Below are positions 3,239 through 55,416 of a DNA stretch of 64,000 nt, one piece after another. The stretch is from Nemertoderma westbladi (taxonomy: Eukaryota; Animalia; Xenacoelomorpha). The stretch is taken from NCBI GenBank assembly GCA_032718475.1, contig JAUCBJ010006988.1, positions 146,075 through 210,074 on the forward strand, written 5' to 3'. Position numbers and translations under genes: made by a program. Numbering within the stretch: the stretch's first letter is position 1; every line of letters begins with the position of its first letter. The notes under the pieces are model-generated. The model saw nothing but the letters and a program-made list of their open reading frames with translations. It was not told the origin of the DNA and made no database searches.

Positions 3239-3249
3239 ATAACAGTTAT
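3239..3249 (+). promoter_or_regulatory. Non-tRNA primer-binding site candidate ATAACAGTTAT (complementary to LTR 2479-2489)
   Basis: Immediately follows the LTR CA and does not start with TGG. It is the exact reverse complement of ATAACTGTTAT at 2479-2489. Confidence 0.7.
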
Positions 3250-3585
3250 GATCGTCTGATTGCAGTGTAGGCAATAAATACAGTTTAATATTGTTCTGGT
3301 AAAAACAATAACAGTTATTGCTTCTGTATTGCAGTAGGCAATAAAGCTGAAGTACCGGTCGACTGGTACCTGGTAGGCCTGACTTCCTAACCACCCGGAC
3401 CGGTACTTATAGCAGTACAGGTACAGCAGTATTATTCGATTTTGATAATTATATACCGGTAGGCCTTAATATTTAATCAGGGACTGCAGCCCTGGTTTTT
3501 TATTGAGATTTTACTTATTTCTGTCAGTTTTATTTATTTGTAGGCCAATATTGAGCAGAAGACGTGTAAGCCTGCTCAGATTGTA

Positions 3586-24411: not shown

Positions 24412-24875
24412 ATTCCCCCTAGTGGCAGACTGGAACTGTATAAAAGTCTGTCTGTGTGTAGGTTTTCTAATTAAGAAATGCTCGTAGGCTACTACTACAA
24501 ATTTTCAGATTAATCTGATGATTGGTTCTAAAATTACTGCTATTTTTATGTTTCTGTCAATTCGCCCCCCTAGCGGCAGACAGAGGAACTGTAGAAGTCT
24601 GTCTGTGTGTAGAATTTCTAAATTTTTTATAGACTACATGTGTACCAAGTTTGGTTCCATTTCATCCATGATTGACTAACTTATTAGCGTTCAAACATTC
24701 CTGCCACAAACATAGCCAGAGGCAGCCACAAACAAACAAAAGCTGCAGGAACTCAAGCGATAATTAATTAATTAATTATTAAATACTGTTTCAATTAAAT
24801 TATTTACGAAAATCTTCTTATCTCCTTTTAAATATGGACCCTGCATTCGTGGAAAATATAATATTTGATAATTCA
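24412..24875 (+). repeat. Interspersed non-autonomous repeat (inverted copy at ~50772-51228)
   Basis: cccctagcggcagac...gtgtaccaagtttggttccatttcatccatgattg...gctgcaggaactcaagcgataatt...ctgcattcgtggaaaatataatatttgataattca recurs as a reverse complement inside the insertion at 50499-53113. Confidence 0.8.
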
Positions 24876-31822: not shown

Positions 31823-32501
31823 TAACCGAAATTTAATATTCTGAATTGTCAAAATCATGCTATCACAGGCCTTGCTCTCCAATTGGACAGTTTAGTTTAT
31901 TAGCAAATATTGACTTTTAGAAATATGATTCACAATTGACGAATTAAAAAATATTGTATTGTTATTATTGGCAATTTTAACTTATTATTAATTAACTTAT
32001 TAATTATTAATAAGAATTTATAATAATAAATTAATATTAATTATTAATAACTTATACTTATTTCCATGGCAACGGGAATGTAAACAAATTCAAATGTAAA
32101 ATATTTGGATAGACTTTTATTTCATTTAATCACCTACCAAATATGAAGGAAAATATCCATTGTCGCCTTGAAATACAGGCGAGCCAAGCATGAAATTTGC
32201 ACATTGAAAGACACTGAAAGACATTTTATTACATTTCTATGAACAACCCTAGTCATCATATCCACCTAACAAAAGTAGCATAAAAGAAGTTTCTAAGGAA
32301 ATATTATGAAAATAGTGCCATAAATATGGAAAACATCGGCCTCCGCTAATTTCATCAATCCGCTCGCTGAATGACCTGTTATTTAGTACACCTTGAGTTC
32401 AATCTAACTGTATTGTGTAACACAATGTCGCTATATCTTTTATTAAATACTGCAATGAGCCACAAAAAAGTACCAATTAAGAATAAATTACATACTAGGC
32501 C

Positions 32502-33618
32502 TGTAAAAGCTTTTGCGGACACAACAAGTCATTTTTCCCCGCAACGTACCGTGTAGGTGCTTTAGCGGACATAACAAGTCATTTTTGCCGCAATGCGCCT
32601 AATACTCTAAAAGACTGGAGCTCAGATGACGAAATCTGTCAGCTGATTTTCTGTAAACGTGGAACCTCTTTGTTCTGCTCAGCCAATCAGAGCGATTTTC
32701 ATTTTATGTTGGACAAGGGCCTACGGAAACCCGCGCAATGCATTACGGTCTTTGTTTACCTTTTCTGAGCCTCAGAACACCGGCTAAGAATTCTTCTGTG
32801 CTTCTGTAGAAGTTAGAGACTTTGGCCAAAACATTAGATGGCTTTGATTACAAGAACGTAAATCTATTATCTGAACAAACTACAATCCAAACTGCTGAAC
32901 TGACTTGCATAAGTAACATATTGATGGTTCACCGCACTATTTTACTTTTGTTTACTGTCTGTTATTAATTGTTGTATATTGATGGATATGTTGTTATATT
33001 TGGAGAATACCGATAAATAATCATAAAACCCCAATCTTCTTGATTACTGAAGGTAAGAGGGACCGGTTACCTGTAGCAATTGCGACTTACATTATAGTTA
33101 TTTTGTGTGAATTAAATGCTATTTCATAATCCCTACATGTGTCAGTCGCTATCCTCCTTATATATGATCAAATTCAGTGACGGTCGGCAGATCAGTGTGA
33201 AGTAGTGTGAAGTCGTGTGAAGTAGTGTGACAGATAATAAAGCATCTCCTAAAGAATGCGCTATTTACGAAACTCAGTGGCCATCTCGTTGTGTTTAGTA
33301 TAAGTCATAACTCTGTTTTATATACTTAAAGAGCCACGTCCTAAAGGAACTGTTAATATTTCCCCGAAAGTGAATAATATTGTCAGAAATTATATAGTAA
33401 CGATCAATCGAATAATACAGTAGGTCTGCACCGCAATAACTTTCAAAGCACCCGAATCCAGTCTCCCTTAACAGTGGGTGAATAATCGCGCATAGACTGG
33501 CTTCGGCTAATGTAACTTCATGTGCACCAAATAATTGTTATAGGCTAAAGTCGATTTATAAACAAGAGGACAACTAAAATTGGCAGGTTAAACTGCTAAA
33601 GGTCTGAAAGCGAGAACA
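32502..33618 (+). repeat. 5' LTR of copy 2 (1117 bp)
   Basis: TGTAAAAGC...gaaagcgagaaCA; matches the 3' LTR with roughly 15 differences by manual count. Confidence 0.95.
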
Positions 33619-33629
33619 ATAATAGATTT
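33619..33629 (+). promoter_or_regulatory. Non-tRNA primer-binding site candidate ATAATAGATTT (complementary to LTR 32860-32870)
   Basis: Exact reverse complement of AAATCTATTAT at 32860-32870. Pairing extends past a small internal loop (gttctt with aagaac). Confidence 0.72.
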
Positions 33630-35592
33630 TGTTCTTTATTGCACAGTAGGCAATAAATATAGTTGTCTATTGTTCTGGTAAGAACAATAATAGATTTTAG
33701 TTTCGTTATTGCACCGTAGGCAATAAAGTCGAAGGTACCGGTCGAACGGTAAGCTGTAGGCCTAACTGCCCAACTACCCGAACTGGTACTTACAGGTACA
33801 ACATTATTATTCGATTTTGATAATTATATACCGGTAGGTCTTAATATTTAATCAGGGATGGCCGCCCTGGTTTTTTATTGGGATTTTACTTATTTCTTTC
33901 AGTTTTGTCTATCTGTAAGTGTAATATTGAGCAGAAGGCGTGTAAGCCTGCTCAAATTGTATAAATAATTTGTAGGCTGGATTGTTGTCTAGCTGTTGTT
34001 AGGTCTGAAGAGATTGCAGTGTGTGTAGAGTGTATGTCCAATAAAGTACTAGTTAGGAAGGTGGGGGCATCCAGTGTTGTAAGGTAAATCCCCCACGAAA
34101 GAATAAGTCGTACTACTCGGTTAGAACGCCTACTAACTACCCATTTTGGAGTCTGCGTATACTTTAGTTTATTTAGGCTTGACAGTAGTCTGCCAGCATT
34201 TGGTCTGTATTTTGTTTATATAGTCTGCACGGGTAGCGTAATATTTATTATTCAGAGTATATTCGAGTATTCGCAACCTACAACCCCCAAGTTTATTCCT
34301 ACAGTAATTGTGCTTGTTATACATACCGTTATAGTTGAATTAACCCCGGTACTACATCAGGGCTGCTTGGCGTAGGTAAAGACTGGTGATTGTGTGCTCC
34401 GGTCACTCCAGCAGATACCTTGGTTCTTTTGGCTGTTCAAGTACATTTAACTGCTGGTTATTTGTTGTATAAGTACTTGTACCTAATTTAGGGTTTAGTG
34501 TACAGTGCTTTCCGAAAGTAATTAGTGTGTAGGCAGTATATTTGTGTTGTAAAGTGGTTAATAGGCACGTTAGCTCTGGTTGGCTGCGGTAATTAACTTC
34601 TAGGTAAGGACACTCCGGGTACATAACGTAGTACTTATAGTTTAAGACTATAAGTCGTCAGACGGTGGTATTTTCTTATCTGGACAACGCAATTTACTTA
34701 CTACTGCTTTATTGTTTTCAAATACCTTAGTTCCTGTCAGTTTGTAATAACCAGAAATTCTAACTCCTTTTTAGACTGGTTTGTAGATTTCTTGTAAAAT
34801 TACCCTAAAATTTGTACGTGTAACTTTTGGTGTTTATTTAGAGATTGTAATCTCACACTGTAATTGTAAGTAATTTGTAGTAATAAGTAACTTAGTAGAG
34901 TGGAGGTGTCTGTATTTGTGTCTCGCATGCTACTTGTTGGACACTAATACAGATAGTTCTGCATTGCTGGGCGTGCAGCTTTGTGGAAGTGATCCCTTAT
35001 CCAGAAATAATAACATTTATTTCAAACATTGTCAAAACCCATTTTACGGGTATATATATATTATAAATCAACTCAAACAGATTTATAAAATAGTAGGCCT
35101 GTTATACATCAATTAGGTCTTAATATCAGTTGAACTACTGCTTAAATAACAGTAATAAAGTAAAAAGGAAGTAACCCTAAAATTCAGAGATTCAGTTATT
35201 ATAAAATAATTGACATTACCGCTATTTAAGGTAGGCTTATTATATTTATTATATAAATTTAGGCTGAAATTATATACCGGTATTCTGTGACTAATCCTAG
35301 TCTATAATAATACTTATACTATAGGTGTATACCGGTATTTACAGCAGGCTTATTATATATATTTATATAAATTTAGGCTGAAATTATATACCGGTATTCT
35401 GTGACTAATCCTAGTCTGTAATAATACTTATATATATACTACAAGTATACCGGTATTTAATATATTAATATATATCGTGTTACACTGAGTAACGGCATCG
35501 GTAATTAATCACTAGGCTTGCAGCTGATACTGAATTACTAGACTTACTTTAACTGTCGTTATAGTAGTAGGCATTCAACTATCAAATAAATC

Positions 35593-38500
35593 ATGGCTGA
35601 CATAAAACAAAACACTGTCAGATAGTCTCCTCGAAAGAACAGTCTGTGACTCAGATAGAAGTATAAAAAATTGGAGACCGAAGTCCAAGTCCCCTCCTAC
35701 TGTAAGAAAGTTCATCCCTACAGTAGTAGTATCAGACCCTAGGCTAGTGAAGCACCATAGGTCTATCATAGGCACTAGGGCTCAAGTCAAGCGGGACCAA
35801 GAGGCCGCTGTTAAACAGCAGCAGCACCCAAACCGGGAACTTATTTCTCAGCGGCCCGATAACTCCAGTAGTTCAGACACTGTAGAGTTGACACCCGAGA
35901 TCGGAGCAAAGATGGCAGAAGAGGTTTATCCGGATCCACTTCTAATTCTTCCTGGAGCCGTACTCACTAGAGTGTTGATAGCTGTGGAAGAACATCAAAT
36001 CGATTGGGCGAGAAGTAAGCGATCGACCAAGGACAGTTATGCGGGATACACAATGGAGGAACTGAAGTCTATTGTCGAGACGCAATGGAACTTCCCCGGA
36101 CCCGGACTCCCGTTTAACTTATCGGAAGCTGCCTTGGAGGACTTATACAGGTTGGGAGTAGTAAGAGACACTCGAGATCCAGCTGTCTGGAAGAGGTCGG
36201 CAGCGGGATATGTCCAGGGATTCTTCAGCTCTTTGGAGCGCTTAGAGGAACACCTGTTTCAACAACGTCAAGGACCTCAAGAGCAGGGAGAGCTGCTTTA
36301 TCAAGTTCAAGAACGAATTTTACGGATCAGACTAATCCTTTCGGCCTTTGAAGAAGCTTCGAAGAGAAGCCAAGACACGTCGTTGCAAGTGGCCATAAAA
36401 ACTTGGTTCCAACGGGTGAGTCTTAAAGTCCAGGGAACGACACAATGGAAAGCTCAGCTAACCGAGCATATGACCCACGGAGAATCAACAGACGCTACCT
36501 TTTCTCAGGTGGAAAGCGAAGCTATATCAGAGAAACCTCAGAAGAAGGACGCTATTGACATCTTATCTGTCGGACTATCAACGATTTATAGGTGACAAAT
36601 AGCTAAGGAGACGGCTAGCTGGACTTCATCCTAATAGTGAGGGAGCCAAATTTGTGTTGGACTCGTTAGATGTGGAAATATTAGCCGCGGAACAGGCTAA
36701 ATTTGATGAAAGCATCCTCATGGTAATGGATCAAGAAGAACAATTAAAGAAACGGCAAATAGAAGACTGAAAGTCTGCAGCAGCGGTGGAATCTGAAAGA
36801 AAAGCAGCAGCAGCAGTGGCAGAGGCAGAGGCTGAAAGGAAAGCAGCAGCAGTAGCGGCAGAGGCAGAGGCTGAGAGAAAAGCGGCAGAGGCAGAGGCTG
36901 AGAGAAAGGCGTCAGCAGCAGCGGCAGCGGCAGAATCTGAAAGGAAAGCGGCAGTGACAGAAGCAGAACTGAAAGCTTCTGAAGTGACTACCCAACTAGA
37001 GCTGGAGAACCTTCAGGCGAAACACTATTACTTGAGGAAACAAAGGACAGCTACTCAGATGCAGTTGCTAAGTAGATCTACTCCCAGGAGACAGGGATTT
37101 ACATCTTCTGATGAAGGCGATACAACCAATCCTGAAGGCGGAGGAAATATATCTCGTTCCAGCGGACGTAGAAGAATGCCACACCGTCAGAAATTGCCTA
37201 ATTTGCCCCCAGCTGTGAGAAGACAACTAGCTAGTGTAGACTTAGGAAATACAGAATCCACAGACCAAATTATTAGAGTAGAAAGACTCCCTACTATAGT
37301 AGATGGCCTGAAATAATTAGGCCTGTTCTCGAAGCTACCCCCTCTGTGATAGAGACCCCTGTACTTCCAGAACCTAATTCTAAATTCCCTTTGCACAGTA
37401 CTAAACTACCTGTGCCCAGTAGAATAGCCCCTGAATCAATCCCAGTCCTGGACGCCGAGCAAGACATCAACGATTTGTCGCCAGTCGTCCCTCGTCTACC
37501 CGCTACTATGTTGGCGGCTCCCACTTCGGCGGTAGAGTGTGTGGATGAGGGACGGCGGGAGATGGGTCTCCTGCTCGGGCAGCTGAAGGAACATCGCATA
37601 TGTTCATCCCAGCAGGTCCAGGAGTTGGAAGGGACTGTTCAGCAGTTAAAGGGAACAGTAAGAGAGGGTAAGTTAGAGTTTCAAGAAGTGCAGCAGAGTA
37701 TCGCGTTAGAACGCGATAAATTAGTAAATATACAATTGGGTATACCACCACCCCCTGTAACAATGTGTCAACCTGTTAGGTCTGAAGTATTTCATGCGCA
37801 AGGTGTGGAGCCTACACGCATCTATACTGCTAGTGAAGTAGAAACTCCTATAGTTAACCCTATTAAGGTTAATTATAAACCCGTTGATAATGATATTCCA
37901 TATAGACCTGATCCTAATATAACTCGATATTAAATAATACGATGGCCCAAGAAAGTTTTACGCGTCAAATGGCTAGAACCGAAGCCCGTCAAGCGGTAAA
38001 GGTGGGAGAGATCGTCAAGTTCAATGGAGATGAGATGAAATGGTTACCTTTTAATGAGTATTATAAAGTTAACATACAGAACTCTGTACTATCTAACGGA
38101 GAGAAACTTAGATTCCTCATCGAGTGCTTGGAAGGACCTCCCAAGTTAATGGCGTTAAAGTTTATTGGACATCCAGATGGATTAAGACAAGTTTGGGATA
38201 CACTCAACATCAGGTATGGTAATAGGACTAATATAGCTATGTATTTGTATGCGAAATTAGTAGCGCCCCGAAAGTTCCTTAGCACCGGGATTATAGAGTT
38301 TTCCGATGAGATTCAGGAGATCTGTAGACAACTAGATTGGTTAGGTAAGTCTCATGAATATCAGAGTTCCATGGTTGTTGGAGCCGTAGCATCTACTTTG
38401 CCAAAGGGTGGAGTAGGTACTCGTTGGGACAAAAGAGTTCTCTATATGATGGACCAGCAACAAAGAGACCCTACCATGGCTGATCTCATGTCATTCTTAA

Positions 38501-41500
38501 ATGGAGAGGTAAGATTGCAGCTCCTAAAGCAGTCCCGAGAGAAGACCCCGGAGAATAAGGTGAGTGAAAAACCCGTTTCTAGGAGAAAGGTAACACCAGT
38601 GTGTTATACAGACGACGGCGAAAGCCAAACCTCCCACGAGGAGAACAGCGGGAAAGACACCGAAAGATTTTACTATGTCAACAAAACACAGAAAGACGTA
38701 AGTAAATCTAAGTCTCGAACCGGTAAGACAGAGAACAGGTAACAACAACTCCTCCTACGTCTCCTAAGAGAATTCATGGAAGAAAGCCCGAGGAAAGAAC
38801 AAGTGTGCACAACACCACACAAGTTAAAGTAAGTAACATCAAACCCAAATGTGCATTGTGCGACGGGCCCCATCGTTTAAGTGGATGTGATGAATTCTTG
38901 AAGAAATCCCTAAAGGATAGACGTGACGTCACGTGGGATAAGCGGTTGTGTTATAATTGTCTCAGACAAGGACACCAATGGCGGACCTGTTACTCAGACA
39001 CGAGATGCGCTAAGTGCGGTGCGAAACATCATATCTTGCTGCACACAGAATTTGAAAGAACCCGCACGAGTCAGGTAAGTGAGCCCGAACTACATGTCCA
39101 ATTCAATGATGTGAACGACACTGACCACAGCTCTGAGATTGAAGGATTTTACACAGATGAATTCTCCGACGAAAACGAATCCTGTTATATGATAAACACC
39201 GCAGTGTATCGAGCGCTTATGTATGAGACTGAAACCAATAACGAAACGCAACTGACTATTCCGGACCGACAACCATCTTGGAAAGCGCCAACTTCCAACA
39301 TCGGAATCCGGGAATTCCCGGTGGATCAGCTGAGAGTCCATGGGCTAGGTAAGAGTTTTATAGTAAACGCCCTCCTTGACTCCGGCAGCACAGGAACATT
39401 CATCGACAAAGAACTAGCCGAAGACATCTTTGCTGGACAACCCAAGTTCCGAACTTAGTTGAACCTTTCAGGAATTATTCAGGTTTGGAAATCCACAGTA
39501 GCTACAGACTACTATGCAGGCGCGTTGTCCACTCCCCAGGATGAACTAGGAGAACATAGCATAAGGTCAGTAAAAATGGTGGCGATAAAGAACTTTGCTA
39601 CCAGCCAAGTAGAACCTTACAACTGGGATGAAGACCATTTTACCCAGCAGCATGATATCCCTAGATTCAACACCGACTACACAGGGGTGCAGATATTGAT
39701 CGGCCAAAATGCGCATGAGGCGCTTGAGAAACAGAAAAACGGCCTGCTCGACCGCAACCATTACAAACATATGCGGGAAGAACGAGAGTAGGTTGGTACT
39801 TCACTGGACCTTCCCATAGAACACTCATGGAAAGACTACCTAACGAAAAGGTACATCAGGTGAGTGAATGGGAAGAAGAAATCAGTGAGGGAGAGACCAC
39901 AACTGTGGGAACACCATACTCCTCAGATAATGACGATATTAACCAATTATTTGACGAGGAAAATACAATCGACCTCCTCACCGAAAATGAAACTTGGCGA
40001 AACCAAGTAAACCTGTGCCATCTCATCAATCATGGCGGACAATTCGACTACAATGACGAATTAAATGAGGTGATAGATCGATACAACAATAAGATTCGCG
40101 ATGAACATACCGTACGATTCTTTACTCAAGAAGCCGTAGAGCCTAATTCCTACGACAAGGCCCTGTCCATCGAGGAGGAGAGAGACAAGCAGATTCTGGA
40201 AACGACTACCCGTTTTCTTAAAGATCAAGGTCGCTATGAGATTGGTCTTCCGTTCCGACGGCGAGAACCCAACTTTTTAAATAACAGACCTTTAGCGGAG
40301 AAGAGAATCGCGCAACTACATCGGCATCTTACGGCAAATGCTTCAGCTAAGGAAATGTATAAGACCCAGCTGAAGAAATTTATCGACAAGGGATACGCGG
40401 AGCGAGTGCCGGAAGAAACACCCATCACAGAGAGAACATATTATCTAACACATCATTACGTTCCCAAACCTGGTAAACACAACGAAGTCCGGGTAGTGTT
40501 CGACGGCTCCGCCCTTTACATGGGACAATCCTTGAATTCCGAATTGTTGCCTGGACCCAACTTACTCCAATCCTTGTTGGGAATACTATTAAGATTACGG
40601 CAATATTCTATCGCCTTCGCCTCGGATATAGAAGGCATGTTCTTACAAGTCAAGGCGCTGGATAGGGATCGAGACAGCCTACGATCTCTGTGGTGGCCTG
40701 AAGGAGACCTCAACCTAAAACCGGTGGAGTACTGGATGACCATCCAGGCATTTGGGATCATCTCGAGTCCCTCGAACACTTGTTCAGTAGTGCGTACCAC
40801 TGCTGATGACAACCAAGACACCTTCTCTAAAGCGGTTATCGACAACATCAAACGGGATATATACATGGACGACAATTTAAAGTCCCTCCCATCGGTGGAA
40901 GAAGCCATTGATGTTGCCAAGGGAATGGTAGAGTGCTTGAAACGCGGTGGAATTCGACTAACCAAATTCACTAGTAACTCCCGTGAGTTTCTGGAATCGA
41001 TCCCGGTAGAAGACCGAGGTGTTAAAGATCTGGACCTCATCAAGGACGATCTTCCGGAAACCAAGACGCTTGGTTTGAAATGGGACACGGATAGAGATAT
41101 CCTGTTTTTACAGCTAAAACAGCGAGATAATCCAGTTCGAACTAAATGGATTTGTCTAAGCATCCTGAGCACTTATTTCGATCCATTGGGATTTATTAGC
41201 CCAGTTTTATTGGTTGCTCTGAGCTTAGTGCAACAAATGTGGCTTGAAAACCACTCGTGGGACGATCCACTTAAGGGAGAACTGCTAAAGAAGTGGATGA
41301 AATGGGAAGATTCTCTACCTTCCATCGAGAACTTTATTATTTCCCGTTCATATTTTGGTCACGTTCTCCCCACGTATTCCTATCAACTCCATGTGTTTGG
41401 AGACGCCAGCGATATGGGAATAGGTTGAAACTCCGGATGGAATTAAAGTTGCCTTGGTTACCTCTAAGGCCTTGATAAAAAACAAGCTACGAGTTCCTCG

Positions 41501-43710
41501 AGCGGAGTTAAAGGCGGCTCTATACGCTACAGCCATCGGCCGGAATGTAACAGAACAGATCAACTATCCACTGGAGAAAACTGTCTATTGGACTGATGCT
41601 TTACTCGTTTTGGAGTATATAACCAATGAAGTCTGTCAGTTCAGCGTCATCGTTACCAACAGAGTAGCCATTATACTTAGTCGCACTAATGTAGATCAAT
41701 GGAGACATTGCCCTGGGACGATTAATCCAGCCGACATCGCCTCCAGAGGAGCAACTCCTCAAGAACTGATAGATACTCCAGACTGGTTAGGTGGACCCGA
41801 CTTCCTAAGTAAAGAAGAGGATGAATGGCCTCCTCATCTCACCACGGCTGAGATTAGACAAGCCAAGGGAGCGGAGAAAGTCAAACCCAAAACCCGGATG
41901 AGTAAATCAAAGTTATTTAAACCCGTGATAGATCTGTCTGTCCTACACATTTCCGGGGACGACGCTGTGGATCTAAACTTCCCCGCCACAAATAAATCTG
42001 TTGTGGAAATTAGAGAAAGAGACTGGAAATCTGGAACACCAGACGTCTCACAGGGACTCTCACCTCTCCTGCAGAGAGCGATAAATCACTATAGCTCCTG
42101 GAATCGGCTTTGTAAGGACGTCGTGTATTTGAAGCGATGCTTCCATCATCACTACTCCAGGACGAAGATCGCTAGTGATACCGCTCCACTGACATCCGTG
42201 CAGGTCCATGCTATTAAAGATCTTCCCAAATATAAAGTATCGGATAGGTTTCTGACGGAAAAGATCAGTTATCAAGAGCATGAAGAAACCAATAAGCAGA
42301 TACTGAGACTCCTGCAATGCTATGAAGATTCCGATAAGTATTTCCTGTTGTTGAAAAATCCACAGACGCCCTTAAGGGATCGTTTCTACGTTAATACGTG
42401 TTGGAGGGAGATTAACTAATGCTCCATTATCCTTTGACACTAAGTTTCCCATACTCATTAGAAATCTTGAAATACAAATCAAGATGATTGTAGATGTTCA
42501 CAGTAGGCTTTACCATGCTGGTAGAGAACGAGTTCTTAGCGAAATTCGAACTCGATATTATTTCCATAAACCCCGTAGAGCTCTGAACCAAGTTCTTAGG
42601 AACTGTATACCCTGTAGGAAAGCATTCAGTAGGCTTTTAACACAGCGAGAGGCAGAATTACCTTGGGAACGAGTAAGCTTCTATGAACCACCCTTTACTA
42701 ATACTGGTGTGGATTTATTTGGCCCTATTGAAGTATATCGTGCTAGGACTATAGTCAAGCGATGGTGTGTCATCTTTGTCTGTATGACTTGTAGAGCGAT
42801 CCATCTAGATATGGCGAACGATCTATCTACCAACAGCTTCATACTGAGTTTACGCCGACAGATCGCTCGCTTTGGAACTAGCAACACGATGAGATCTGAT
42901 AAGGGAACGAACTTCATTGGCGCCAATAATGAGATCAAAGCTTATGTTAAAGATTGGAACCAAAGACAGGTGGACGATCAGCTAAGGGTAACAGCATCTA
43001 GCTGGACCTTCAACGCCGCCGACGCCCCTTGGTGGGGAGGAAGTTGGGAGAGATTAATAAGGAGCGTGAAGACCGCATTTCACTTTATAGTGCCATGCCG
43101 CGCGTATCTCACCGACGAACTTTTGCGGACGTTAATGGAAGAAATCGCTGCCTATCTTAACGAGAGACAGCTTATGCCAGTCTCATCGAGTCCCGACTCC
43201 CTAGAAGCGCTAACACCTGCACATTTCCTACTAAAGAAACCTGTAGCCATTCTCCCACAATCGGAAATCACGGACGGAGACGAATACTGCCGACAAACTT
43301 GGCAACTTATGCAGTTATTATCCCGCCGTTTCGCTGACCATTTCGAAAAACATTATCTGCCTGCGCTACAACTTCGAACCAAGTGGTTTGCGCAGCAAGA
43401 AAACGTCAGCGCTGGAGACATGGTCCTTATTGTGGAAACAGATCTTCCACGTAAGCGGTGGCAGACAGGTCGTATCATCGAGACTCATATATCCGATGAT
43501 GGTTTAGAGCTATCGGTAGAACTCGTCGTCATGCGACGTAACTTTAAGAAACCTGGAATTGTATTCGAAACACAGCAACTCAATTGCCCAGTTGGTCGTT
43601 TATGTTTACTGGAAAGAGACAGAGAACTATCCGGAAACTATGGAAGGCAAGATACTCTTCCCACGACCACCTCCCTAATCCAACAAACATCTAGGGACTC
43701 CCCAACGTAA
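35593..43710 (+). pseudogene. Disrupted BEL/Pao gag-pol polyprotein (copy 2), ~2700 codons
   Basis: Knuckles CALCDGPHRLSGC, CYNCLRQGHQWRTC and CAKCGAKHHILLH; aspartic protease ALLDSGS (~39369-39389); RT YMDD (~40862); RNase H LHVFGDAS; integrase DLFGP/SDKGTNF/WERLIRSVK. Several frameshifts and stops. Confidence 0.94.
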
Positions 43711-45321: not shown

Positions 45322-48300
45322 ATGACTGCGTTGATAGAAGATGATCTTGGTATCAGGGAGTGATATACCATACCATTGCAAGCGTTTGTTGATAGTTTAA
45401 TACGCGGCGACGCTAGTCAACCCACTACGGAGGACGATGGCCGTTATATCGAACCGCCAATGTCAAAGGAACAGCTCACGTGTGAATTGGACTATAGAAA
45501 ATTCACCGCTCACTATACGCATCGTAATGGTACGTATATGGACTTCTTAACTACTGGTCACCCTATCGATTTACACGATATGGACGATGTAGACACCGAA
45601 AGGGAAATAATCCTATTTAAATATCATACCCAGCGGAGTCGGAACGATAAACTGAGAATCGAACACGAAAATTCTATTCGCAACCAACTCGAAAGAGAAA
45701 ACGTTGAAGAGCCGGATAAACGCAGTGACTTCAACGAATATCTGGAATTCTTGAGAGAAACATATCTCAATATTGCCAGTCAACAAAACCTAGAAACTCG
45801 ATATCCGCAAAGTATACATCATGACCCTATGATAGAACTCAAACGACTCTATTTCACTATGATGTATCTTACCGCCGATCGACCGCTACCTGTTGTACCA
45901 GATAGCTTCAAACAGATGGAGGAGTATTGTAAAACTGGAGAAAGATCACCCGCATTTCCTCTACAAGACGTGCGTCTTTGGTATTATTGCGATGAATGCC
46001 CTAGACCTAACCAACAAACAGAAAGACATAAACATCTGCGGAGACGTTGCGCTAAACACAGTTTTACTCGCTATACTTACGGGAGTTTCGAGCGAAACTT
46101 GTTCGACGTATCACCTACGCTCTCTCGACTCAAACGATCCTTAAATAAACCGATGATCAGAGTTCCGGAATACTCGGTCAGACCTCCTCATTCCCTAGTG
46201 AGACCTCAAACTCTTGATCCTAATAGTATAACGGATCCTGCTGAACTGTACTCACTGTTCAAAGATCTCGTGTTACCCGAACAATGAATCGGTGGCACTC
46301 CGGTAGTGGGCTCTTATGATATTCGCCCATCTTACCTAGCCGGATTGGGACGCGGACATTTAATATCGCCGTTTAACCCGTATAATCGTCCCGGTCTAAC
46401 CCCGATACAACCCGTCACCGAAGTCGAGGAGAGTGTTGTACGAAACGCGTTAGACGCTATTCGGCAAAAGATCGGAAAAGGAACTTACGATTGTTTGGAG
46501 AAACGTAAATTGCAGCAGCAAGTCCAAGCGGTAAAAGAATTAGCTTTACCTCAGTTCGATCGGGAAATCTCGAAGAAGATATCGAACTTGGACGAACCTA
46601 CTCTCTACAAGAGTTTTTGGACGAACGCTTCCAACGACAAGCGGAGGAAAATCAGCTCGAGGTGAAACACATCGAAAGGGATAAGAGAGAAGAAGCAGCT
46701 TTAGCCCAACCAGAAGCTCAAATCCTTATGACTGACCTGTACAACCTCAATCGGTTGATATCAACCTAAGATCTCGAGATCTTATCGCTGACGCTCCTAT
46801 GTTACAACGTCCGCCAATCGAGGCCGCTCGTGTCGACGGTATACTCGTTGAACCACCGGACAATCGAGCGGATCTTATCCGTCGTATGGTACACGAGGTC
46901 AACCTACGCGCTAGACCTTTACCGAACTCGTTTTATGGGATCAAAGACGACCCTTATTATGTCAATCTAACTCAATATTATATGGTAAAACCGGAAGATC
47001 CTACACATAGTCTAAGGTTTTTACCACTAATAAATCCCCTCGATCTTGTCGAACTCGAACAACTGCAGAAACATCTGGATCAGTTAGTGAAAATAAACTC
47101 ATTCAGAAAACCCTACAATGTTTCCAGAATAGAGAAGGATATAATGCCTCCGTATAATCTCGATAGATTTATTAAAACTCGATTAGTCCACTGGAATATC
47201 GACGTATTATTCAGGAAGAGAGAATACAACGATATGGAGATGTAGAGACGTATACTACACAGTATCTGAAGTATAGGGATCTACCTAACGCTAGCGAATG
47301 CGCCACCTTGTGGCATCCGGTGGGGATGACCCTAGAAAACGCCACTAAAGAGTGGAACGAAACTCTTAACGTTATTGAAATGTATGGAGTTGTCACTTAC
47401 GATAACGAAGGTAGCGTTCCGGTTGGAGAACTGGGAACTACGCTCATGATACATATATGAGGACTAGCTGGTTCTACCCACGTGTTTACTCGAGCGTGTT
47501 CTGACGTGATTGATTATTCTTTTGAGACTCTCACCGAGATACAAAAGAAACTCCGACATGGACAATTCGAACTCGCGCAGCGCTACGTCACCGACACCGA
47601 GCGCAAACCGGCCATGGGTATAGATGGATCGATGTTACCCCAGCCAGTGCTCGAGATGTTGTTTAACGAAAGAATCCTTAAAATCGGCTCAGCTGTTTAT
47701 GGAGATCTCCAAAACGACTTCAGGAACATGGAGAATATCCCATATCCTTTCGTAGACACCCAGCTGATTGCTCCCTGGGCAGAAGGCCGAGGTTTCTTCC
47801 GCACTATGTATGCCAATACATCCAGCGGCATCAATAAAATACAACGAACCTCCATCGGACATCTTGCCTTTCAAGAATACGGATGGAATTTCAAAGTCGG
47901 AAACCCTATCAACTATCAAAAAGTATATGGAGATCATTATTCTCGATTATACTTCGACGGAAAATTGACCGCACCTGGCATCGTTTATAGCTTTATGAGT
48001 GTTCCACTTCGTCCCTCATTAGCTATATACACTATCTTCGAGAACGCCGCACTTGCTGGTTGGCTAGCCGATGTGTGCAGTCGTACTATACGCGCCCATC
48101 CTTTGATACTTGGAACCAAACTCGCCAAGCTAGATGAACACAATAAATTCATCCGCTTCGAATGCTTTAGGCGCTTTCTGACTCCGTTCCGTAACGTTGA
48201 TAGTCAGTTCAAGGACCGCGCTCTGACCAAGCTCAGCCTAAGAGACTCAGCTGCTGAGAAGTTAGACAGCGCTGGATTCGCCATTTTCAAGGACGTTTGT

Positions 48301-49500
48301 TTACAGAACTTACATTCCTCTGTTATACAAAGACCCCGAATCCCCACGGGTTATTCTATCGTGGAAGTTCAGACAGTGGGTTCGCTTGAGGAGACAGCTA
48401 TGCCTAACTCAGCTATGCAATTGGAAGACGAACCAATTTGTTTAGAGTCCAAGGAGATTCAACCCACAGCGCCTAGGAGCAGTGACAACGACTACGTCCT
48501 GGAATGGTATAAGGTCCACAATGTCTCACCGCATACGATTATCGGCATGCCAATTATGTTTCTAGGAAACATTGCCGATTATGCGCATCTCGAGACCACT
48601 TCACCCCGGTGGACTCCAACGTACCCTGCTCCTACTTCCATGACCAACCTACGATGGAGATCTATTGTGCATATTGTAGACTCAATAACTTACACATTTT
48701 CGCAGTCTGCCCTCAATTTATGACTCAATGCCATCATTGCCAGTTTAAAGGACACGCAAGTTTTAATTGCCCTTTCAACCGAGATCTGGAAAGCGTAGAT
48801 GAAATGATTACCCTACACTACATTCGAGCCTGGGAAGCGAACGCGGATCGAGTCACGTCATCGATAATACCCTGGACGTGCCTATGAAGGAGTTTATGCA
48901 TTTCACCCGTATCTATTTGCTTCCGTTGAGCAAAAATCTCGCACACCGAGTTATGAACTAATGAAGCGTGTTGGCGAGAATATTTCGACCAAATTTGTTC
49001 GTAAATATCTCAGGAACATTAATCCCAATGATCTTAATTCCTATAACTTGATCAACTTCATCCGTCAAGATCCGGAATATGGTGACTTGTTCATCAACTC
49101 GCATCCAGAACTACAGGAAGTTCATAGACGACCCTATGACTATAGAGCCCGAGAACGCGAGTTAGAAAGAACCATCAAACCGAGGAAATTTCTCGCTTCT
49201 CACGGTCCACCTACCGCTCTCGTGCAGACGACTCGTCAGGGACCAGTAAGAGTAAGAGCTGCTGTCTTGAAACGCGCTCTGAAGGTTGTTCGACCTCGCT
49301 CCACTGAGGTTGATATCGATCAACCGGGTACCTCGACCGGCGGATACACCGACCGTAACCCTAAACCTTCCGATGCAATTGTATTGCACCCTTCACCCAG
49401 GAGTTATAGCCCTCCTAGTAAAATGGCTCGCCCCAAAGAGAAAAGGACTCTTGCTAGCTTCAAAAAACTGCGTAAACGCCGTTCACGTAAGAAGGACTAA
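45322..49500 (+). pseudogene. Extra retrotransposon ORF (~1390 codons): DEDDy 3'-5' exonuclease-like domain, two zinc knuckles and a basic tail
   Basis: The six ORF-track pieces join through three in-frame TGAs (45361, 46285, 47458) and about five frameshifts. Exo I VVTYDNEG (D 47401, E 47407), Exo II LPQPVLEMLFNERILKIGSAVYGD (D 47704), Exo III PLRPSLAIYTIFE (Y 48028, E 48040). Knuckles CAYCRLNNLHIFAVC and CHHCQFKGHASFNC; C-terminus KKLRKRRSRKKD. Confidence 0.75.
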
Positions 49501-49569: not shown

Positions 49570-49577
49570 GGGAGCAG
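49570..49577 (+). promoter_or_regulatory. Short polypurine tract candidate (GGGAGCAG)
   Basis: Purine-rich 8-mer abutting the TG of the 3' LTR; short and imperfect. Confidence 0.45.
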
Positions 49578-51347
49578 TGTAAAAGCTTTTGCGGACATAA
49601 CAAGTCATTTTTCCCCGCAATGTACTGTGTAGGTGCTTTAGCGGACATAACAAGTCATTTTTGCCGCAATGCGCCTAATACTCTAAAAGACTGGAGCTCA
49701 GATGACGAAATCTGTCAGCTGATTTTCTGTAAACGTGGAACCTCTTTGTTCTGCTCAGCCAATCAGAGCGATTTTCATTTTATGTTGGACAAGGGGCCTA
49801 CGGAAACCCGCGCAATGCATTACGGTCTTTGTTTACCTTTTCTGAGCCTCAGAACACCGGCTTAGAATTCTTCTGTGCTTCTGTAGAAGTTAGAGACTTT
49901 GGCCAAAACATTAGATGGCTTTGATTACAAGAACGTAAATCTATTATCTGAACAAACTACAACCCAAACTGCTGAACTGACTTGCATAAGTAACATATAT
50001 TGATTGTTCACCGCACTATTTTACTTCTGTTTACTGTCTGTTATTAATTGTTGTATATTGATGGATATGTTGTTATATTTGGAGAATACCGATAAATAAT
50101 CATAAAACCCCAATCTTCTTGATTACTGAAGGTAAGAGGGACCGGTTACCTGTAGCAATTGCGACTTACATTATAGTGATTTTGTGTGAATTAAATGCTA
50201 TTTCATAATCCCTACATGTGTCAGTTGCTATCCTCCTTATATATTATCAAATTCAGTGACGGTCGGCAGATCAGTGTGAAGTAGTGTGAAGTCGTGTGAA
50301 GTAGTGTGACAGATAATAAAGCATCTCCTAAAGAATGCGCTATTTACGAAACTCAGTGGCCATCTCGTTGTGTTTAGTATAAGTCATAACTCTGTTTTAT
50401 ATACTTAAAGCGCCACGTCCTAAAGGAACTGTTAATAATTCCCCGAAAGTGAATAATATTGTCAGAAATTATATAGTAACGATCAATCGAATAATACACG
50501 TTCGTGGGGCCTTCGCGCAGCACGAGGCCCAGTTATGAGATACAAATTAAAATTGTGCGACTGTATCACAAAATCAGGTTATGAGAGATTAACCCACACC
50601 ACCAATTAATCAAAGAAAGGGGGACAGTACGTGTTCACCCCTTTTAATCTGTGGTGTGGCTAGTTGCCACCGGTCACGCGGTCAGCCGGTACCGGTAGTA
50701 GGGTGGTACCATGGCCTACTACACACAGGCCATGACAAGGACTTGCCGTGAAATTAGCGTAGGCTGACTGATGAATTATCAAATATTATATTTTCCACGA
50801 ATGCAGGGTTCATATTTAAAAGAAGATGACTAGATTTTCGTAAAGAATTTAATTGAAACAGTATTTAATAATTAATAAATTAATTATCGCTTGAGTTCCT
50901 GCAGCTTTTATTCGTTTGTGGCTGCCTCTGGCTATGTTTGTGGCAGGAATGTTTGAACGCTAATAAGTCGGTCAATCATGGATGAAATGGAACCAAACTT
51001 GGTACTCATGTAGTCTATAAAAAATTTAGAAATTCTACACACAGACAGACTTCTACAGTTCCCCAGTCTGCCGCTAGGGGGCGAATTAACAGAAACGTAA
51101 AAATAGCTGTAATTATAGAACCAACGATCAGATTCATCTGAAATTTAGTAGTAGTTACCTAAGAGCATTGCTTAATTAGAAATTCTACAGAGACTTTTAC
51201 AGTTCCTGTCTGCCTCTAGTGGGGAATTGTTAGAGCTCCAGTTCAACGTGCTTAGCACGGTTTAATAAACAATCAATTAATTATTTTATTCAATACAGTA
51301 ATTATAACAGTAAAATGCAATGTATTCTATTTTTTAGTGAAATCAAG

Positions 51348-51850
51348 AGATAGGAGGGGGGTGGGACTGGACGCAAATCCCATCTTGGCGAATTAATATC
51401 CCGCCTCAAGGTTATCATTCATATGCGTACCTCTGGCAAAAGAAGCAGGTCACAGTGGTGGTGTTTTCTAACCAAAACAATACACTAATCTCCATTACTT
51501 AATTAACGGAAAGGAGCAGGTTACAGTGGTGGGCTTTTCTAACCAAAACAATAAACAATATCTCAATAACATAGGGTATTTCATACTTATAGTCTTATTT
51601 TTGCAATACGAAAATACCAGAGGTACGCATATGAACTATAAGTCGTCTCAATATTAATTTCTCAATTTTGGGAAAGGAGCAGGTTACAGTGGCACGTTAT
51701 TTTAACCAAAACAATAAAGTAAACACAATAGAACAGGTTAGTTTTATTTTTGAGAGTAATCAGCTGTTGTTATTTGCGTCCAATTTCCCCTGGAGAGGGA
51801 TTAATTTTTATTGCGTCCAGTCCCCCCCCCCCCCCCCCCCCCCCCTATCT
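51348..51850. mobile_element. MITE-like element with agatagg(G)n-actggacgcaa terminal inverted repeats
   Basis: Left end agataggagggggtgggactggacgcaa, right end ttgcgtccagt(c)ntatct; a shorter inverted copy is at 59033-59284. Confidence 0.7.
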
Positions 51851-51972
51851 TGAAATCAAATACCAAAAATATATTTATTATATGAACAATCTATTTGGAA
51901 ATTGTAAGTTCGGCCTATATCTTTACCATAAGCTCAGTATCTTTATCTGGTGTGTTTTTATTATTTTACCAA

Positions 51973-52602
51973 TTATTTAATATGTTTGATAGAATTGAAC
52001 AACACCGCCCAACACAACCAACTCTCTATCCGCCTCGAGCATCGAGAATACGAGAAACTCGATCGAAATACCTGCTTATCCCAGTAGTATCCGTCCGTAG
52101 ACACCGGACCGCTGCGGTTTACTCCCGTAGAACAGTAGAATTCCCGCAGCTTCCGACCCAATTCGACAACGAATTCGCTTCACACTTTCGCGTCACAGAG
52201 AACGTAATCCAGTGCGATAACGTCTGCCCAACGTTCAACCATTTCCCCCAGGCGATCCCAGGATCCGGGCCGCCGCTAAACCCAGATCGCAATCCTCGTC
52301 GATTCGTCCAGTCGTCGACGTATGTCAGTAAGTGGGACTCTTCCCACCGCACTCCAAGGTGGGTGACCGGAGTGAGGCATGAGGAACTTGGCAGTGGCCC
52401 GCATTACGATCTGACTGACCGCCGTATTCCCAGTGTCTGAGTGTAGTAAATACCCAAATAGAATCGTACTGACAAACAAGCAATTCCGTAGTATTCCCCC
52501 GTTAATCACCTCTTGAAGCAACTCGGCTGCTCGGGTCCAGATACATCGGACTGTCGGGAGCGTTTCAGACAGTAATGGAGCGGCATTTGCGAATATTTCC
52601 AA
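51973..52602 (-). pseudogene. Possible decayed gene fragment (~210 codons, two in-frame stops), product unknown
   Basis: ORFs 52276-52602 and 51973-52161 are in the same minus frame, in a GC-rich island with a hydrophobic stretch LRNCLFVSTILFGYLL. Confidence 0.3.
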
Positions 52603-53165
52603 TGGTTTTATAATAAATAAGGGGATTCAACAGTTCAATGCTAAAACAAATGGATTATTCCTAACCCCACCCCAATACAGCAATATACCTAACAGTATAT
52701 AGCTTTGCAGGATTCTCGATTCAGGGATTGAGTACAGCCTGACAGTACCGGTACACATGGTAGGCCTACATGCAGAATTGCAAAATTTGTCAGAAAACCC
52801 AGCTGATTTATCCTACAGTAATAATAATTTAACGCATTTTAAATTTGGATAAACAAATGTATTATAACTGCAATAACAGTTACACTGATGCTGCACGAAG
52901 GCCCCACGCAAATTCTACTTGGAAAATTTTCAAACTTTTGCCAAACAACATGTGTACCAAGTTTGGATAGATTTCATCAAGGATTGGCCGAGTTATTAAC
53001 GTTTAAAATAAAATACTGAAAAAAAACGCGACAGAACGACAGAACGACAGAACGACAGGTTGATTAATGGTACCACTACGCTAAGGCTCACTCACTTCGT
53101 GGCTCGCCCCACAGTAGGTCTGCACCGCAATAACTTTCAAAGCACCCGAATCCAGTCTCCCTTAA

Positions 53166-54686
53166 GGGGGCGGTACACCACCTGGTGTCAAAAAATTGAA
53201 AAAAAATTTTTTTGCCGAATATTGTGTGAAATTTTATGTAGATTCCGAATCTGAAATCGGTTTTGTCATATCTCGATTGGATCTCGAGTTATACGTCTTT
53301 AACTGAGACCATGTTGACGGACAGACTGACAGACAGACCGACAGACCGACAGACAGTCTGGATAGGGTCAAAAGTGAAAACTGACAGCGGAAATGAAATC
53401 CTTGACCAGGAAAACCCCAATAGAGAGAATTTTAATTAGCTAATGTGATTCCTTATACTTTTGACGGACAGACCGACAGACCGACAGCCAGTCTGGATAG
53501 GGTCAAAAGTGAAAACTGACAGCGGAAATGAAATCCTTGACCAGGAAAACCCCCATAGAGAGAATTTTAATTTGCTAATGTGATTCCTTATACTTTTGAC
53601 GGACAGACTGACAGACAGACCGACAGACAGTCTGGATAGGGTCAAAAGTGAAAACTGACAGCGGAAATGAAATCCTTGACCAGGAAAACCCCCATAGAGA
53701 GAATTTTAATTAGCTAATGTGATTCCTTATATTTTCGACGGACAGACTGACAGACAGACAGACCAACAGACCGACAGACAGTCTGCATAGGGTCAAAAGT
53801 GAAAACTGACAGCGGAAATGAAATCCTTGTCCAGGAAAACCCCCATAGCGAGAATTTTAATTAGCTAATGTGATTCCTTATACTTTTGACGGACAGACTG
53901 AAAGACAGACCGACAGACAGACCGACAGACAGTCTGGATAGGGTCAAAGTGAAAACTGACAGCGGAAATGAAATCCTTGACAAGGAAAACCCCCATAGCG
54001 AGAATGTTAGTAGATTTTATTCTTTCTAAAGTCTTGACAGACAAACAGACAGAAATACTGACAGACTTCAGAAATTCATGAATTAGAGTTGGGCACTTGG
54101 GGGTTTGAATAATTTACAGTTAGGTACCGAAAGGGTTAAAACTTTAACCTCATTTTTCTCAGAATGTCATTTTTTGACCTCAAAAATGTATCTAGTCCGC
54201 CAATTTTCAATGAATTGAGCTGAAATTTGGAAAGTATCTCCAGACCGACGCACTCTTTAGAAATTGTGGTCAAATTTTTTTTTTTTAGCTTCGTTCGTTT
54301 TTTATTCAATGTTAAATGTAGAAATTTCGTGATTTTTTCGTTCTAAATGAAAAGTAATTTTTGATTGGCTATAAAAAAAGATCAAAACAAAATTTTAAAA
54401 ATTTGACCACAATTTCTGTTTATCATGACTTGGAGAATATGCACACCAAATTTCGAGCGAAAATAATTATAAATAAATATGTAGATAGGTTTTGTAATAT
54501 AGTCAATATTTATTAATATTAACTATTATTAAATTATTATAAATAGTTAATTCGAAAAAATTTTTTTGCCAAAAGTTGTATCTACAACCCAACTCTAATT
54601 GTGCCAATTTTCGAAAATACTTGACAATTTTGAAGCACACGACAATGATTTTTGTAAAAAATGCGCTTAGGTGGTGTACCGCCCCC
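53166..54686. mobile_element. Non-autonomous Kolobok-type DNA transposon (TTAA TSD) with internal ~150-bp tandem repeats
   Basis: 18-bp TIR GGGGGCGGTACACCACCT/AGGTGGTGTACCGCCCCC. TTAA is duplicated (53162-65, 54687-90) but single in the 5' LTR. RR...YY termini with a TTAA TSD fit Kolobok. Five gacag-rich units at ~53314-54010. Confidence 0.85.
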
Positions 54687-55416
54687 TTAACAGTGGGTGA
54701 ATGATCGCGCATAGACTGGCTTCGGCTAATGTAACTTCATGTGCACCAAATAATTGTTATAGGCTAAAGTCGATTTATAAACAAGAGGACAACTAAAATT
54801 GGCAGGTTAAACTGCTAAAGGTCTGAAAGCGCGAACAAGGCCCTACATGGAAAAAAAATGTTCATCATCTTTTTCCAATATTCTCTCGAACCTTTATAAA
54901 CTCCGCTGGCGCCCGATAAATAAAATGCCTAGAGAATATTGAAAAAAGTTATTCTTTTTTCCCATGTAATAAATAATTATTTATATAACTTTTAGGAATT
55001 TTTAAACAACTTTTGCTAACGAAAATGGTGCTTTAGATAGTAGGGCCTACTTAGTTTGCTTTAATAGCATTTAAAAAAATTAAGTCAAAATATTATAATG
55101 ATAAGTTTGAAGTTATCACAAATTAATAATGTAAAACAAATATACTGAAGTCTAACTAAAATAACTTCACAATGGAAATTAGGCAGTGCAGTAGTGTATT
55201 ACCTACAATTACTTAATATTAATATAAATAATATAAATTGTAATATTAGCATTAATTTGTAAGCAATTAACGGGGGGGGGGGGGGGTATACCCCCCTTTA
55301 ACAAACTAAAAAACTAAATTCAATTTCAGCAAAGATTGGATAAATAACACAAATTTTAAAAGTTTACAAGGACTGAAGCATAAGAAGCTTCTTATAGGAC
55401 ATCAGAATAAATTATG

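What the first reader, a model, noticed from the sequence alone, without database searches (positions are those of the whole stretch)
32852..33636. Covarying LTR/PBS complementarity points to tRNA-independent self-priming in a BEL/Pao retrotransposon
Seen: neither copy has a TGG-initiated tRNA PBS after the 5' LTR. In copy 2 the first 11 nt after the terminal CA (ATAATAGATTT, 33619-33629) are the exact reverse complement of AAATCTATTAT inside the LTR (32860-32870), extendable by gttctt/aagaac. In copy 1, ATAACAGTTAT (3239-3249) pairs perfectly with ATAACTGTTAT at the homologous LTR position (2479-2489). The copies differ at three positions in each 11-mer and all three are compensatory (C:G to T:A, T:A to A:T, A:T to T:A). 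The 3' end of the duplex sits exactly at the LTR boundary, where minus-strand synthesis must start. Established: S. pombe Tf1 and related Tf1/sushi gypsy elements self-prime using the first 11 nt of their RNA, whereas BEL/Pao elements are generally described as tRNA-primed. Inference: this lineage self-primes, and I am not aware of a described BEL/Pao case. Caveats: the copy-1 11-mer is quasi-palindromic and n=2.
Basis: partly seen in the sequence, partly recalled or inferred. Interest (0 to 1): 0.9.

Follow-up and report, generated by a model that had tools for sequence, protein, structure and literature searches.

The report
Self-priming switch in BEL/Pao retrotransposon
An animal jumping gene of the BEL/Pao group lacks the usual tRNA landing site; instead an 11-letter stretch of its own terminal repeat is complementary to the spot where DNA copying must start and to two further partner sites, all changed in step between two copies, so it likely starts copying itself with its own RNA.

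Summary
Observation confirmed. Copy 2 is a BEL/Pao-type element with a 5-bp target duplication. Its 5' LTR ends at 33618, and the next 11 nt complement LTR 32860-32870. Copy 1 keeps the pairing with three compensatory changes (0 of 150 shuffles reach three).

New here: the post-LTR 11-mer is doubled, and a split complement inside the LTR (33233-39 and 33263-69 around a hairpin) carries the same three changes. One LTR segment therefore covaries with three partners. Among copy-2-like contigs of three DNA runs, 32840-32872 shows no variant at 3% or more, and conservation collapses 2 nt past the 11-mer.

Best reading (about 0.7): priming by element-derived RNA, Tf1-like but not Tf1-identical, probably under an RNA switch.

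Against or open: no RNA data, so the start site is unmapped. Folding does not favour pairing at the LTR-adjacent site. No shared Tf1 'pretzel' was found. Only two linked copies exist.

Ten literature searches found no self-primed BEL/Pao, and ICTV lists tRNA priming. This scan noted self-priming BEL/Pao in other genomes before (unchecked); their splice-built primer does not apply here.

The parts
32502..33618 (+). 5' LTR of copy 2 (1117 bp, TG..CA)
32497..32501 (+). left target-site duplication AGGCC (right copy 54838-54842)
32860..32870 (+). candidate self-primer 11-mer, copy 2 (also in the 3' LTR at 49937-49947)
32840..32872 (+). block with no substitution at 3% or more in copy-2-like contigs; sequence diverges sharply from 32873
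33053..33058 (+). best-scoring splice-donor-like site in both LTRs (copy 1: 2678); use untested
33233..33269 (+). split complement of the primer region: 33233-33239 pairs with 32865-32871 and 33263-33269 with 32857-32863, around a 23-nt spacer (identical in both copies) with a small hairpin; the first half overlaps the only AATAAA of this LTR (33236)
33619..33629 (+). PBS1: complement of the 11-mer directly after the LTR's CA
33668..33689 (+). hairpin whose 5' arm can pair either locally (hiding the start of PBS2) or with the LTR end and start of PBS1
   Evidence: helices 33614/33675 and 33668/33689
33687..33697 (+). PBS2: second copy of the complement, also preceded by AACA
35606..43710 (+). 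broken gag-pol of copy 2 (DUF1759, zinc knuckles, protease motif, RT motifs, Peptidase_A17/RNase H, integrase, DUF5641)
45364..49500 (+). broken extra 3' coding region; 47320-48300 has DEDDy-exonuclease-like motifs, with a weak zinc knuckle downstream (lead only)
49570..49577 (+). short purine-rich tract before the 3' LTR
49578..54837 (+). 3' LTR of copy 2 with two insertions (about 50499-53113 and 53159-54683)
2045..3238 (+). 5' LTR of copy 1 (1194 bp; 82% identical to copy 2 over aligned columns)
2479..2489 (+). candidate self-primer 11-mer, copy 1
2857..2893 (+). split complement, copy 1, carrying all three compensating changes
3239..3249 (+). PBS1, copy 1
3308..3318 (+). PBS2, copy 1
6342..13269 (+). 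broken gag-pol of copy 1 (lacks the roughly 730-nt protease segment; homology to copy 2 ends at about 14847)

Best explanation
This BEL/Pao-type retrotransposon has no tRNA site after its LTR and carries there the exact complement of an 11-nt segment of its own LTR, which likely serves as the RNA primer for minus-strand DNA. Shown: the boundary, the complementarity, and three compensatory changes at each of three partner sites. Inferred steps: (1) transcription starts at or somewhat upstream of the 11-mer; (2) the segment is first held by the split complement inside the LTR as a three-way junction, an off or storage state; (3) it is handed to PBS1, probably with help from Gag, in cis or from a second LTR transcript; (4) the unpaired RNA 3' of the 11-mer is cut off or trimmed, by RNase H as in Tf1 or possibly by the exonuclease-like 3' product, leaving a 3'-OH whose first template base is the LTR's last A; (5) PBS2 binds a second copy of the segment, for example the one in the 3' LTR, closing the RNA into a ring as Ty1's CYC sequences do. 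Split of the 0.7: 5' fragment longer than 11 nt about 0.35, strict first-11-nt Tf1 type about 0.2, primer from a separate short or spliced LTR transcript about 0.15.
For: LTR end fixed by LTR-LTR identity and target duplication; the duplex ends exactly there in both copies. No TGG before +58; ICTV describes an 18-nt tRNA-Arg/Gly site for the family. Cognate duplexes are -8.0 and -10.1 kcal/mol against +0.4 and -4.3 for cross pairs. Of 153 helices of 7 bp or more possible in both copies, only 4 are fully Watson-Crick with two-sided changes, and all 4 use LTR 32857-32871. 0 of 150 shuffles reach three changes, and 4 of 150 give any LTR-internal helix with two. In contigs of three DNA runs (two samples; 225, 125 and 96 contigs laid) no substitution at 3% or more lies in 32840-32872, while depth falls from 27,000-97,000 to under 1,500 by 32875 with many unrelated loose ends: constraint stops at the predicted primer end. 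Two single contigs carry a non-TGG post-LTR site with only one unit (table 5c). RNase H acidic motifs are present in copy 2. Precedent in other superfamilies: Tf1/sushi, and predicted for TAR copia.
Against: No RNA start site or primer end is mapped. Only two linked copies, one without a 3' LTR. Whole-leader folding gives probability 0.00 for PBS1 in both copies; copy 2 prefers the split complement and copy 1 prefers PBS2; forcing PBS1 costs 7-16.5 kcal/mol. The split junction folds well in copy 2 (3' half 0.8-1.0) but poorly in copy 1 (0.2 or less). No pretzel arms shared by both copies. The 11-mer lies 749 nt before the PBS, so strong-stop DNA would be long. Two of the three partners cannot be priming sites, so covariation alone does not prove priming.
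Confidence: 0.7

Rival explanations
1. The pairings are a structural RNA switch (ring closure, packaging, dimer contact, or masking of the poly(A) signal in the 5' LTR), and minus-strand DNA is primed by something else.
For: Two of the three covarying partners (PBS2 and the split complement) are not at the LTR end. Folding favours these over PBS1. The split complement overlaps the only AATAAA in the copy-2 LTR. Ty1 has non-priming long-range CYC pairing.
Against: Leaves no primer: no tRNA site at the boundary. Does not explain why a perfect complement starts at the first base after CA in both copies, or why constraint ends 2 nt past the 11-mer. AATAAA is AACAAA in copy 1.
Confidence: 0.19
2. 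A host tRNA primes, either a half-tRNA at the LTR end or a whole tRNA at the TGG at +58/+59.
For: The family is described as tRNA-primed, and half-tRNA priming exists in copia elements. By eye, the 12 nt from the +58/+59 TGG are within 2 mismatches of two AT-rich tRNA ends filed as 'others' in a published list.
Against: The two copies match different list entries. The site is 57 nt from an LTR end fixed by the target duplication, and the single-unit contigs skip it. A host primer would not change in step with three element sites. The host's own tRNA set could not be examined.
Confidence: 0.05
3. The matched words are DNA-level binding sites for an element protein, or were homogenised by template switching without function.
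For: The word occurs in both orientations and several times; the copy-1 version is nearly palindromic.
Against: The copy-2 version is not palindromic. The split site replaces one base by a conserved hairpin, which fits RNA pairing and not a DNA word. Neutral copying would not keep 32840-32872 free of variants.
Confidence: 0.05
4. Chance.
For: An AT-rich 11-mer complement occurs in about 0.15% of shuffled LTRs, and other 11-12 nt complements to the LTR exist in the leader.
Against: 0 of 150 shuffles give three compensatory changes; the independent-column estimate is about 7e-8 over the LTR.
Confidence: 0.01

Closest known systems
Tf1/Tf2/Tj1 and the Tf1/sushi group (Ty3/gypsy chromoviruses)
   Same: No tRNA site; an 11-nt PBS right after the LTR's CA, complementary to the element's own LTR.
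   Different: Different superfamily, with no chromodomain hit. Tf1's primer is the first 11 nt of the RNA and needs a three-duplex pretzel; here the start is unmapped, no shared pretzel was found, the PBS is doubled, and a split complement competes for the primer.
TAR lineage of Ty1/copia (Houba, Osr-1) and Tcn1
   Same: Self-priming predicted from LTR/PBS complementarity, for TAR outside the Tf1/sushi group.
   Different: Plant elements of the copia and gypsy superfamilies; no extra partners mentioned in the passages read.
Belpaoviridae / BEL-Pao (ICTV profile, PMC8742986)
   Same: gag-pol with PR-RT-RH-IN order, BEL-typical Pfam families, LTRs of 1.1-1.2 kb.
   Different: The profile gives an 18-nt tRNA-Arg/Gly PBS and 4.2-10 kb; this element has no tRNA site and is about 18 kb without its LTR insertions.
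Ty1 CYC5/CYC3 cyclization
   Same: Long-range pairing next to the PBS; a model for PBS2.
   Different: Ty1 is tRNA-primed, and its ring pairing does not reuse the primer sequence.
DEDDy ORF3 of bdelloid Juno/Vesta LTR elements (PMC5408684)
   Same: Extra ORF after pol with 3'-5' exonuclease motifs.
   Different: Other LTR lineages; homology to those ORFs was not tested, and no link to priming appears in the passages read.

Membership tests
BEL/Pao (Belpaoviridae) | gag-pol with PR-RT-RH-IN order and BEL-typical domains | tested here: met
   DUF1759, Peptidase_A17, Integrase_H2C2, DUF5641; protease motif; RT motifs by alignment (Pfam gave no RVT_1 hit)
BEL/Pao (Belpaoviridae) | LTRs of 0.2-1.2 kb, TG..CA, target duplication | tested here: met
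   1117 and 1194 bp; 5-bp duplication in copy 2
BEL/Pao (Belpaoviridae) | placement in an RT tree with named members | not tested
   no named reference set fetched; nearest hits 25-36% identical, with BEL-type Pfam content
BEL/Pao (Belpaoviridae) | 18-nt tRNA-Arg/Gly PBS (ICTV profile) | tested here: not met
   no TGG before +58; filed therefore as BEL/Pao-type by proteins, departing from the profile
BEL/Pao (Belpaoviridae) | genome of 4.2-10 kb | tested here: not met
   about 18 kb without the two LTR insertions
Tf1/sushi self-priming group | Ty3/gypsy chromovirus proteins with chromodomain | tested here: not met
   not a member
Tf1/sushi self-priming group | PBS directly after CA, complementary to own LTR, no tRNA site | tested here: met
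Tf1/sushi self-priming group | primer is the 5' end of the RNA | not testable with these tools
   no RNA holder listed
Tf1/sushi self-priming group | pretzel: two further duplexes between PBS-adjacent and downstream LTR sequence | tested here: inconclusive
   with PBS1 forced, each copy finds different partners for the LTR end; none is shared; two sequences only
Tf1/sushi self-priming group | RNase H cut at the primer 3' end | not testable with these tools
   RNase H motifs present; activity untested
Splice-built BEL/Pao primer (earlier scan notes, not a published family) | primer formed only at an exon junction inside the LTR | tested here: not met
   the 11-mer is contiguous; no GT..AG junction (72 donor x 64 acceptor and 84 x 65 dinucleotide sites, introns of 50 nt or more) gives a complement of 8 nt or more

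The most novel reading that the evidence does not exclude
An animal BEL/Pao lineage has independently evolved tRNA-free priming run by an RNA switch. One LTR 'key' is parked in a three-way junction at the poly(A) signal, handed to the LTR-adjacent site to prime, and used by a twin site to close the genome into a ring. An element-encoded 3'-5' exonuclease trims the key to its priming end.
Probability: 0.15. Interest if true: 0.88.

Novelty: new variant of a known kind. Interest (0 to 1): 0.68.

Why it matters
Self-priming is proven only for Tf1 and predicted for its relatives and one plant copia lineage, while BEL/Pao is officially tRNA-primed. A BEL/Pao case would be a further independent origin and would explain elements annotated as having no PBS. 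The three-partner covariation goes beyond the Tf1 model. It points to how a self-primer is kept inactive until needed and how an RNA with two copies of its primer avoids priming from the wrong one. The two natural versions give a ready cognate-versus-cross test.

Tried and rejected
No genome is held, so further linked copies and host tRNAs could not be read. No RNA holder listed (no evidence either way).

Searches for relatives:
- Metagenome scan with an LTR-end motif: 1 hit, an unrelated sequence outside the motif.
- Viral contigs: 4 scans, no relative.
- Genome contigs: 6 hits, all cyanobacterial records, taken as chance from their titles and not read.

Structure and RNA-family tests:
- Rfam over 32400-34400: 2 matches far below threshold. 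ARAGORN: no tRNA in the window.
- Hammerhead reading of the three-way junction rejected: core motifs absent (read from the sequence).
- Splice-built primer rejected (donor and acceptor scores used rough weights from my own knowledge).
- A tRNA-like fold upstream of the 11-mer: none shared by the copies.

Extra 3' ORF: no hit, none in Pfam or PDB with the stop read as X, and a single-sequence model at pLDDT 31 that was not used. Its only relative has no further relatives.

Literature: ten searches gave no self-primed BEL/Pao; two BEL/Pao papers hold no PBS terms. Subscription journals, Repbase Reports and bioRxiv supplements were not searchable, so a prior mention cannot be excluded.

Full report
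1. The element. The window holds two related BEL/Pao-type elements. Copy 2 runs 32502-54837 between two AGGCC duplications. Its 5' LTR is 32502-33618. Its 3' LTR starts at 49578 and is split by two insertions, and the LTRs match at 1103 of 1117 aligned bases. Copy 1 has a 5' LTR at 2045-3238 and a broken gag-pol, and loses homology at about 14847 with no 3' LTR. The LTRs of the two copies are 82% identical over aligned columns. Pfam finds DUF1759, Peptidase_A17, Integrase_H2C2 and DUF5641; protease, RT and RNase H motifs are visible in translations and alignments. No RT tree was built.

2. The observation. It is as described. In both copies the longest complement to the LTR starts at the first base after CA and is 11 nt long. 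The complement occurs in 33 of 20000 and 29 of 20000 shuffled LTRs. The three differences are compensatory: cognate duplexes are -8.0 and -10.1 kcal/mol, cross duplexes +0.4 and -4.3. With the two post-LTR 11-mers re-registered without gaps by hand, 0 of 150 block shuffles of the two-copy alignment gave a helix with three two-sided changes. An independent-column estimate is about 7e-8 over the LTR. The first TGG is at +58/+59. By eye it lies within 2 mismatches of two AT-rich tRNA ends in a published list, a different one for each copy. It is 57 nt from an LTR end fixed by the target duplication, and single-unit contigs skip it.

3. First, the post-LTR 11-mer is doubled (33687-33697; 3308-3318), each time after AACA, and both units changed with the LTR site. 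Two single contigs show elements with one unit only (table 5c). Second, an unbiased list of all 153 helices of 7 bp or more that both copies can form gave 141 with no two-sided change, 8 with one, 2 with two and 2 with three. Only four are fully Watson-Crick with such changes, and all four use LTR 32857-32871. Two are the PBSs. The other two are 33233-33239 with 32865-32871 and 33263-33269 with 32857-32863: a collinear split complement around a 23-nt spacer that is identical in both copies and forms a small hairpin. Together they compensate all three changes. In LTR-only shuffles 4 of 150 had any helix with two changes and 3 of 150 had two helices with changes, before asking that they lie on the primer. 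The expected numbers for the two halves are 1.8e-4 and 2.5e-3, and 0.02 for any single changed 7-mer over the site (post hoc). The first half overlaps the only AATAAA of the copy-2 LTR, which reads AACAAA in copy 1.

4. Population view. The family is abundant in DNA contigs of one coded organism (4 of 6 listed runs laid). On 32795-32930, three runs from two samples (225, 125 and 96 contigs laid) show variants at 32829, 32835, 32836 and 32839, none at 3% or more in 32840-32872, then a fall in depth from tens of thousands to under 1,500 by 32875 with many unrelated loose ends. Constraint thus ends 2 nt past the predicted primer 3' end. I expected a variant at 32861, because one contig has the matching PBS change and 33265 T>A reaches 51-73% (that table showed 40 of 253 rows). 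It was not seen. This is unexplained unless those copies have a 5' LTR part too divergent to be laid.

5. Folding. For the unspliced leader, pairing with PBS1 has probability 0.00 in both copies at all four starts tried. Copy 1 pairs with PBS2 (about 0.9 at three of four starts, 0.28 at one), and copy 2 with neither. Copy 2 instead pairs with the split complement (3' half 0.8-1.0; 5' half 0.2-0.8, and only when upstream bases are included), while copy 1 does so at 0.2 or less. Forcing PBS1 costs 7-16.5 kcal/mol. With PBS1 forced, the copies share no flanking pretzel arms. The priming duplex, if real, is therefore not the resting fold and needs a chaperone or a trans primer. Folding of 900-nt RNAs is unreliable, so this weighs only modestly.

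6. Start site and splicing. There is no TATA box 30 nt before the 11-mer (read from the sequence). One covarying helix needs three bases upstream of it, which suggests a start further 5'. The best donor-like site in both LTRs is 33053/2678, which fits transcription across the 11-mer but is untested. Earlier scan notes describe primers built by splicing in other genomes; here the 11-mer is contiguous and no GT..AG junction gives 8 nt or more of complement.

7. Mechanism. Shown: the boundary, the absence of a tRNA site at it, and covariation with three partners. Inferred: storage in the split junction, transfer to PBS1, removal of the 3' flap, extension from the LTR's last base, and use of PBS2 by a second copy of the segment. 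Recalled and not checked here: plus-strand synthesis copies the primer back into the PBS, which would help PBS1 track the LTR but would not explain PBS2 or the split site. The 3' extra region may encode a DEDDy exonuclease (atlas lead 0.76; one relative, E 4e-4 in the library and 1e-13 pairwise, itself only at Pfam E 0.2; no Pfam or PDB hit). A role in trimming is speculation.

8. Comparison and novelty. It works like Tf1 in having an LTR-derived complement directly at the boundary, but it is not a Tf1/sushi member. ICTV gives tRNA priming for Belpaoviridae (PMC8742986, whole text). Self-priming is shown for Tf1 (PMC7175516, PMC4600332 and bioRxiv 2022.12.06.519325, passages) and predicted for Tcn1 and TAR (PMC6317226, passages). 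Also seen: PMC3601003, PMC5408684, PMC6934838 and PMC3592414 (passages); PMC13524379 (passages, search rows and the last part of supplement 1); PMC3118150 and PMC554778 (term searches with no PBS hits). Levin's original papers were not read. Ten searches found no self-primed BEL/Pao in the held library. Six earlier scan notes report the idea in other genomes; they are unchecked and are not counted as support. One look-up for a doubled PBS with a junction found nothing.

9. Verdict. The feature is real. It is a new variant of a known kind, self-priming at about 0.7, interest 0.68.

Noticed in passing
window 45364-49500: Broken extra coding region between pol and the 3' LTR. 47320-48300 shows DxE, KxGxxxxxD, DT and YxxxE motifs like a DEDDy 3'-5' exonuclease (my reading; atlas lead 0.76, one relative at E 4e-4), with a weak zinc knuckle after it.
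   Followed up: partly
window 33053 and 2678; 32775, 32809 and 2408, 2439: A strong donor-like site in both LTRs and acceptor-like pyrimidine tracts 40-85 nt upstream of the 11-mer; together they would frame an exon that holds the primer.
   Followed up: partly
window 32873-32930: Hypervariable, C/A-rich stretch starting 2 nt after the 11-mer; might be an unstructured flap or a strand-transfer mutation hot spot.
   Followed up: partly
runs X2 and X3, loose end behind 32850: One contig in each run shows a third version of the LTR 11-mer (position 4 as in copy 1, position 11 changed); its PBS was not seen.
   Followed up: no
window 53159-54683: Insertion in the 3' LTR with TTAA at both ends and terminal inverted repeats beginning GGGGG; Kolobok-like termini (label recalled).
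   Followed up: no
window 50499-53113: A second insertion in the 3' LTR, itself holding repeats found elsewhere in the window (24412-24875, 59038-59273).
   Followed up: no
window 3586-4459: Three nearly identical 290-nt units in the leader of copy 1; one unit in copy 2.
   Followed up: no
window 15143-15360: Looks like a tRNA-derived SINE (recalled motifs; ARAGORN calls no tRNA).
   Followed up: no
window 16597-21677 and 27882-29386: Tandem arrays of 21 nt x 241 and 35 nt x 43, lying between weak inverted matches at 16123-16340 and 30750-30995.
   Followed up: no
window 22410-23183 (-) and 55420-56436 (-): Uninterrupted ORFs with Cyclin_N plus Cyclin_C_2, and with Fibrinogen_C.
   Followed up: no
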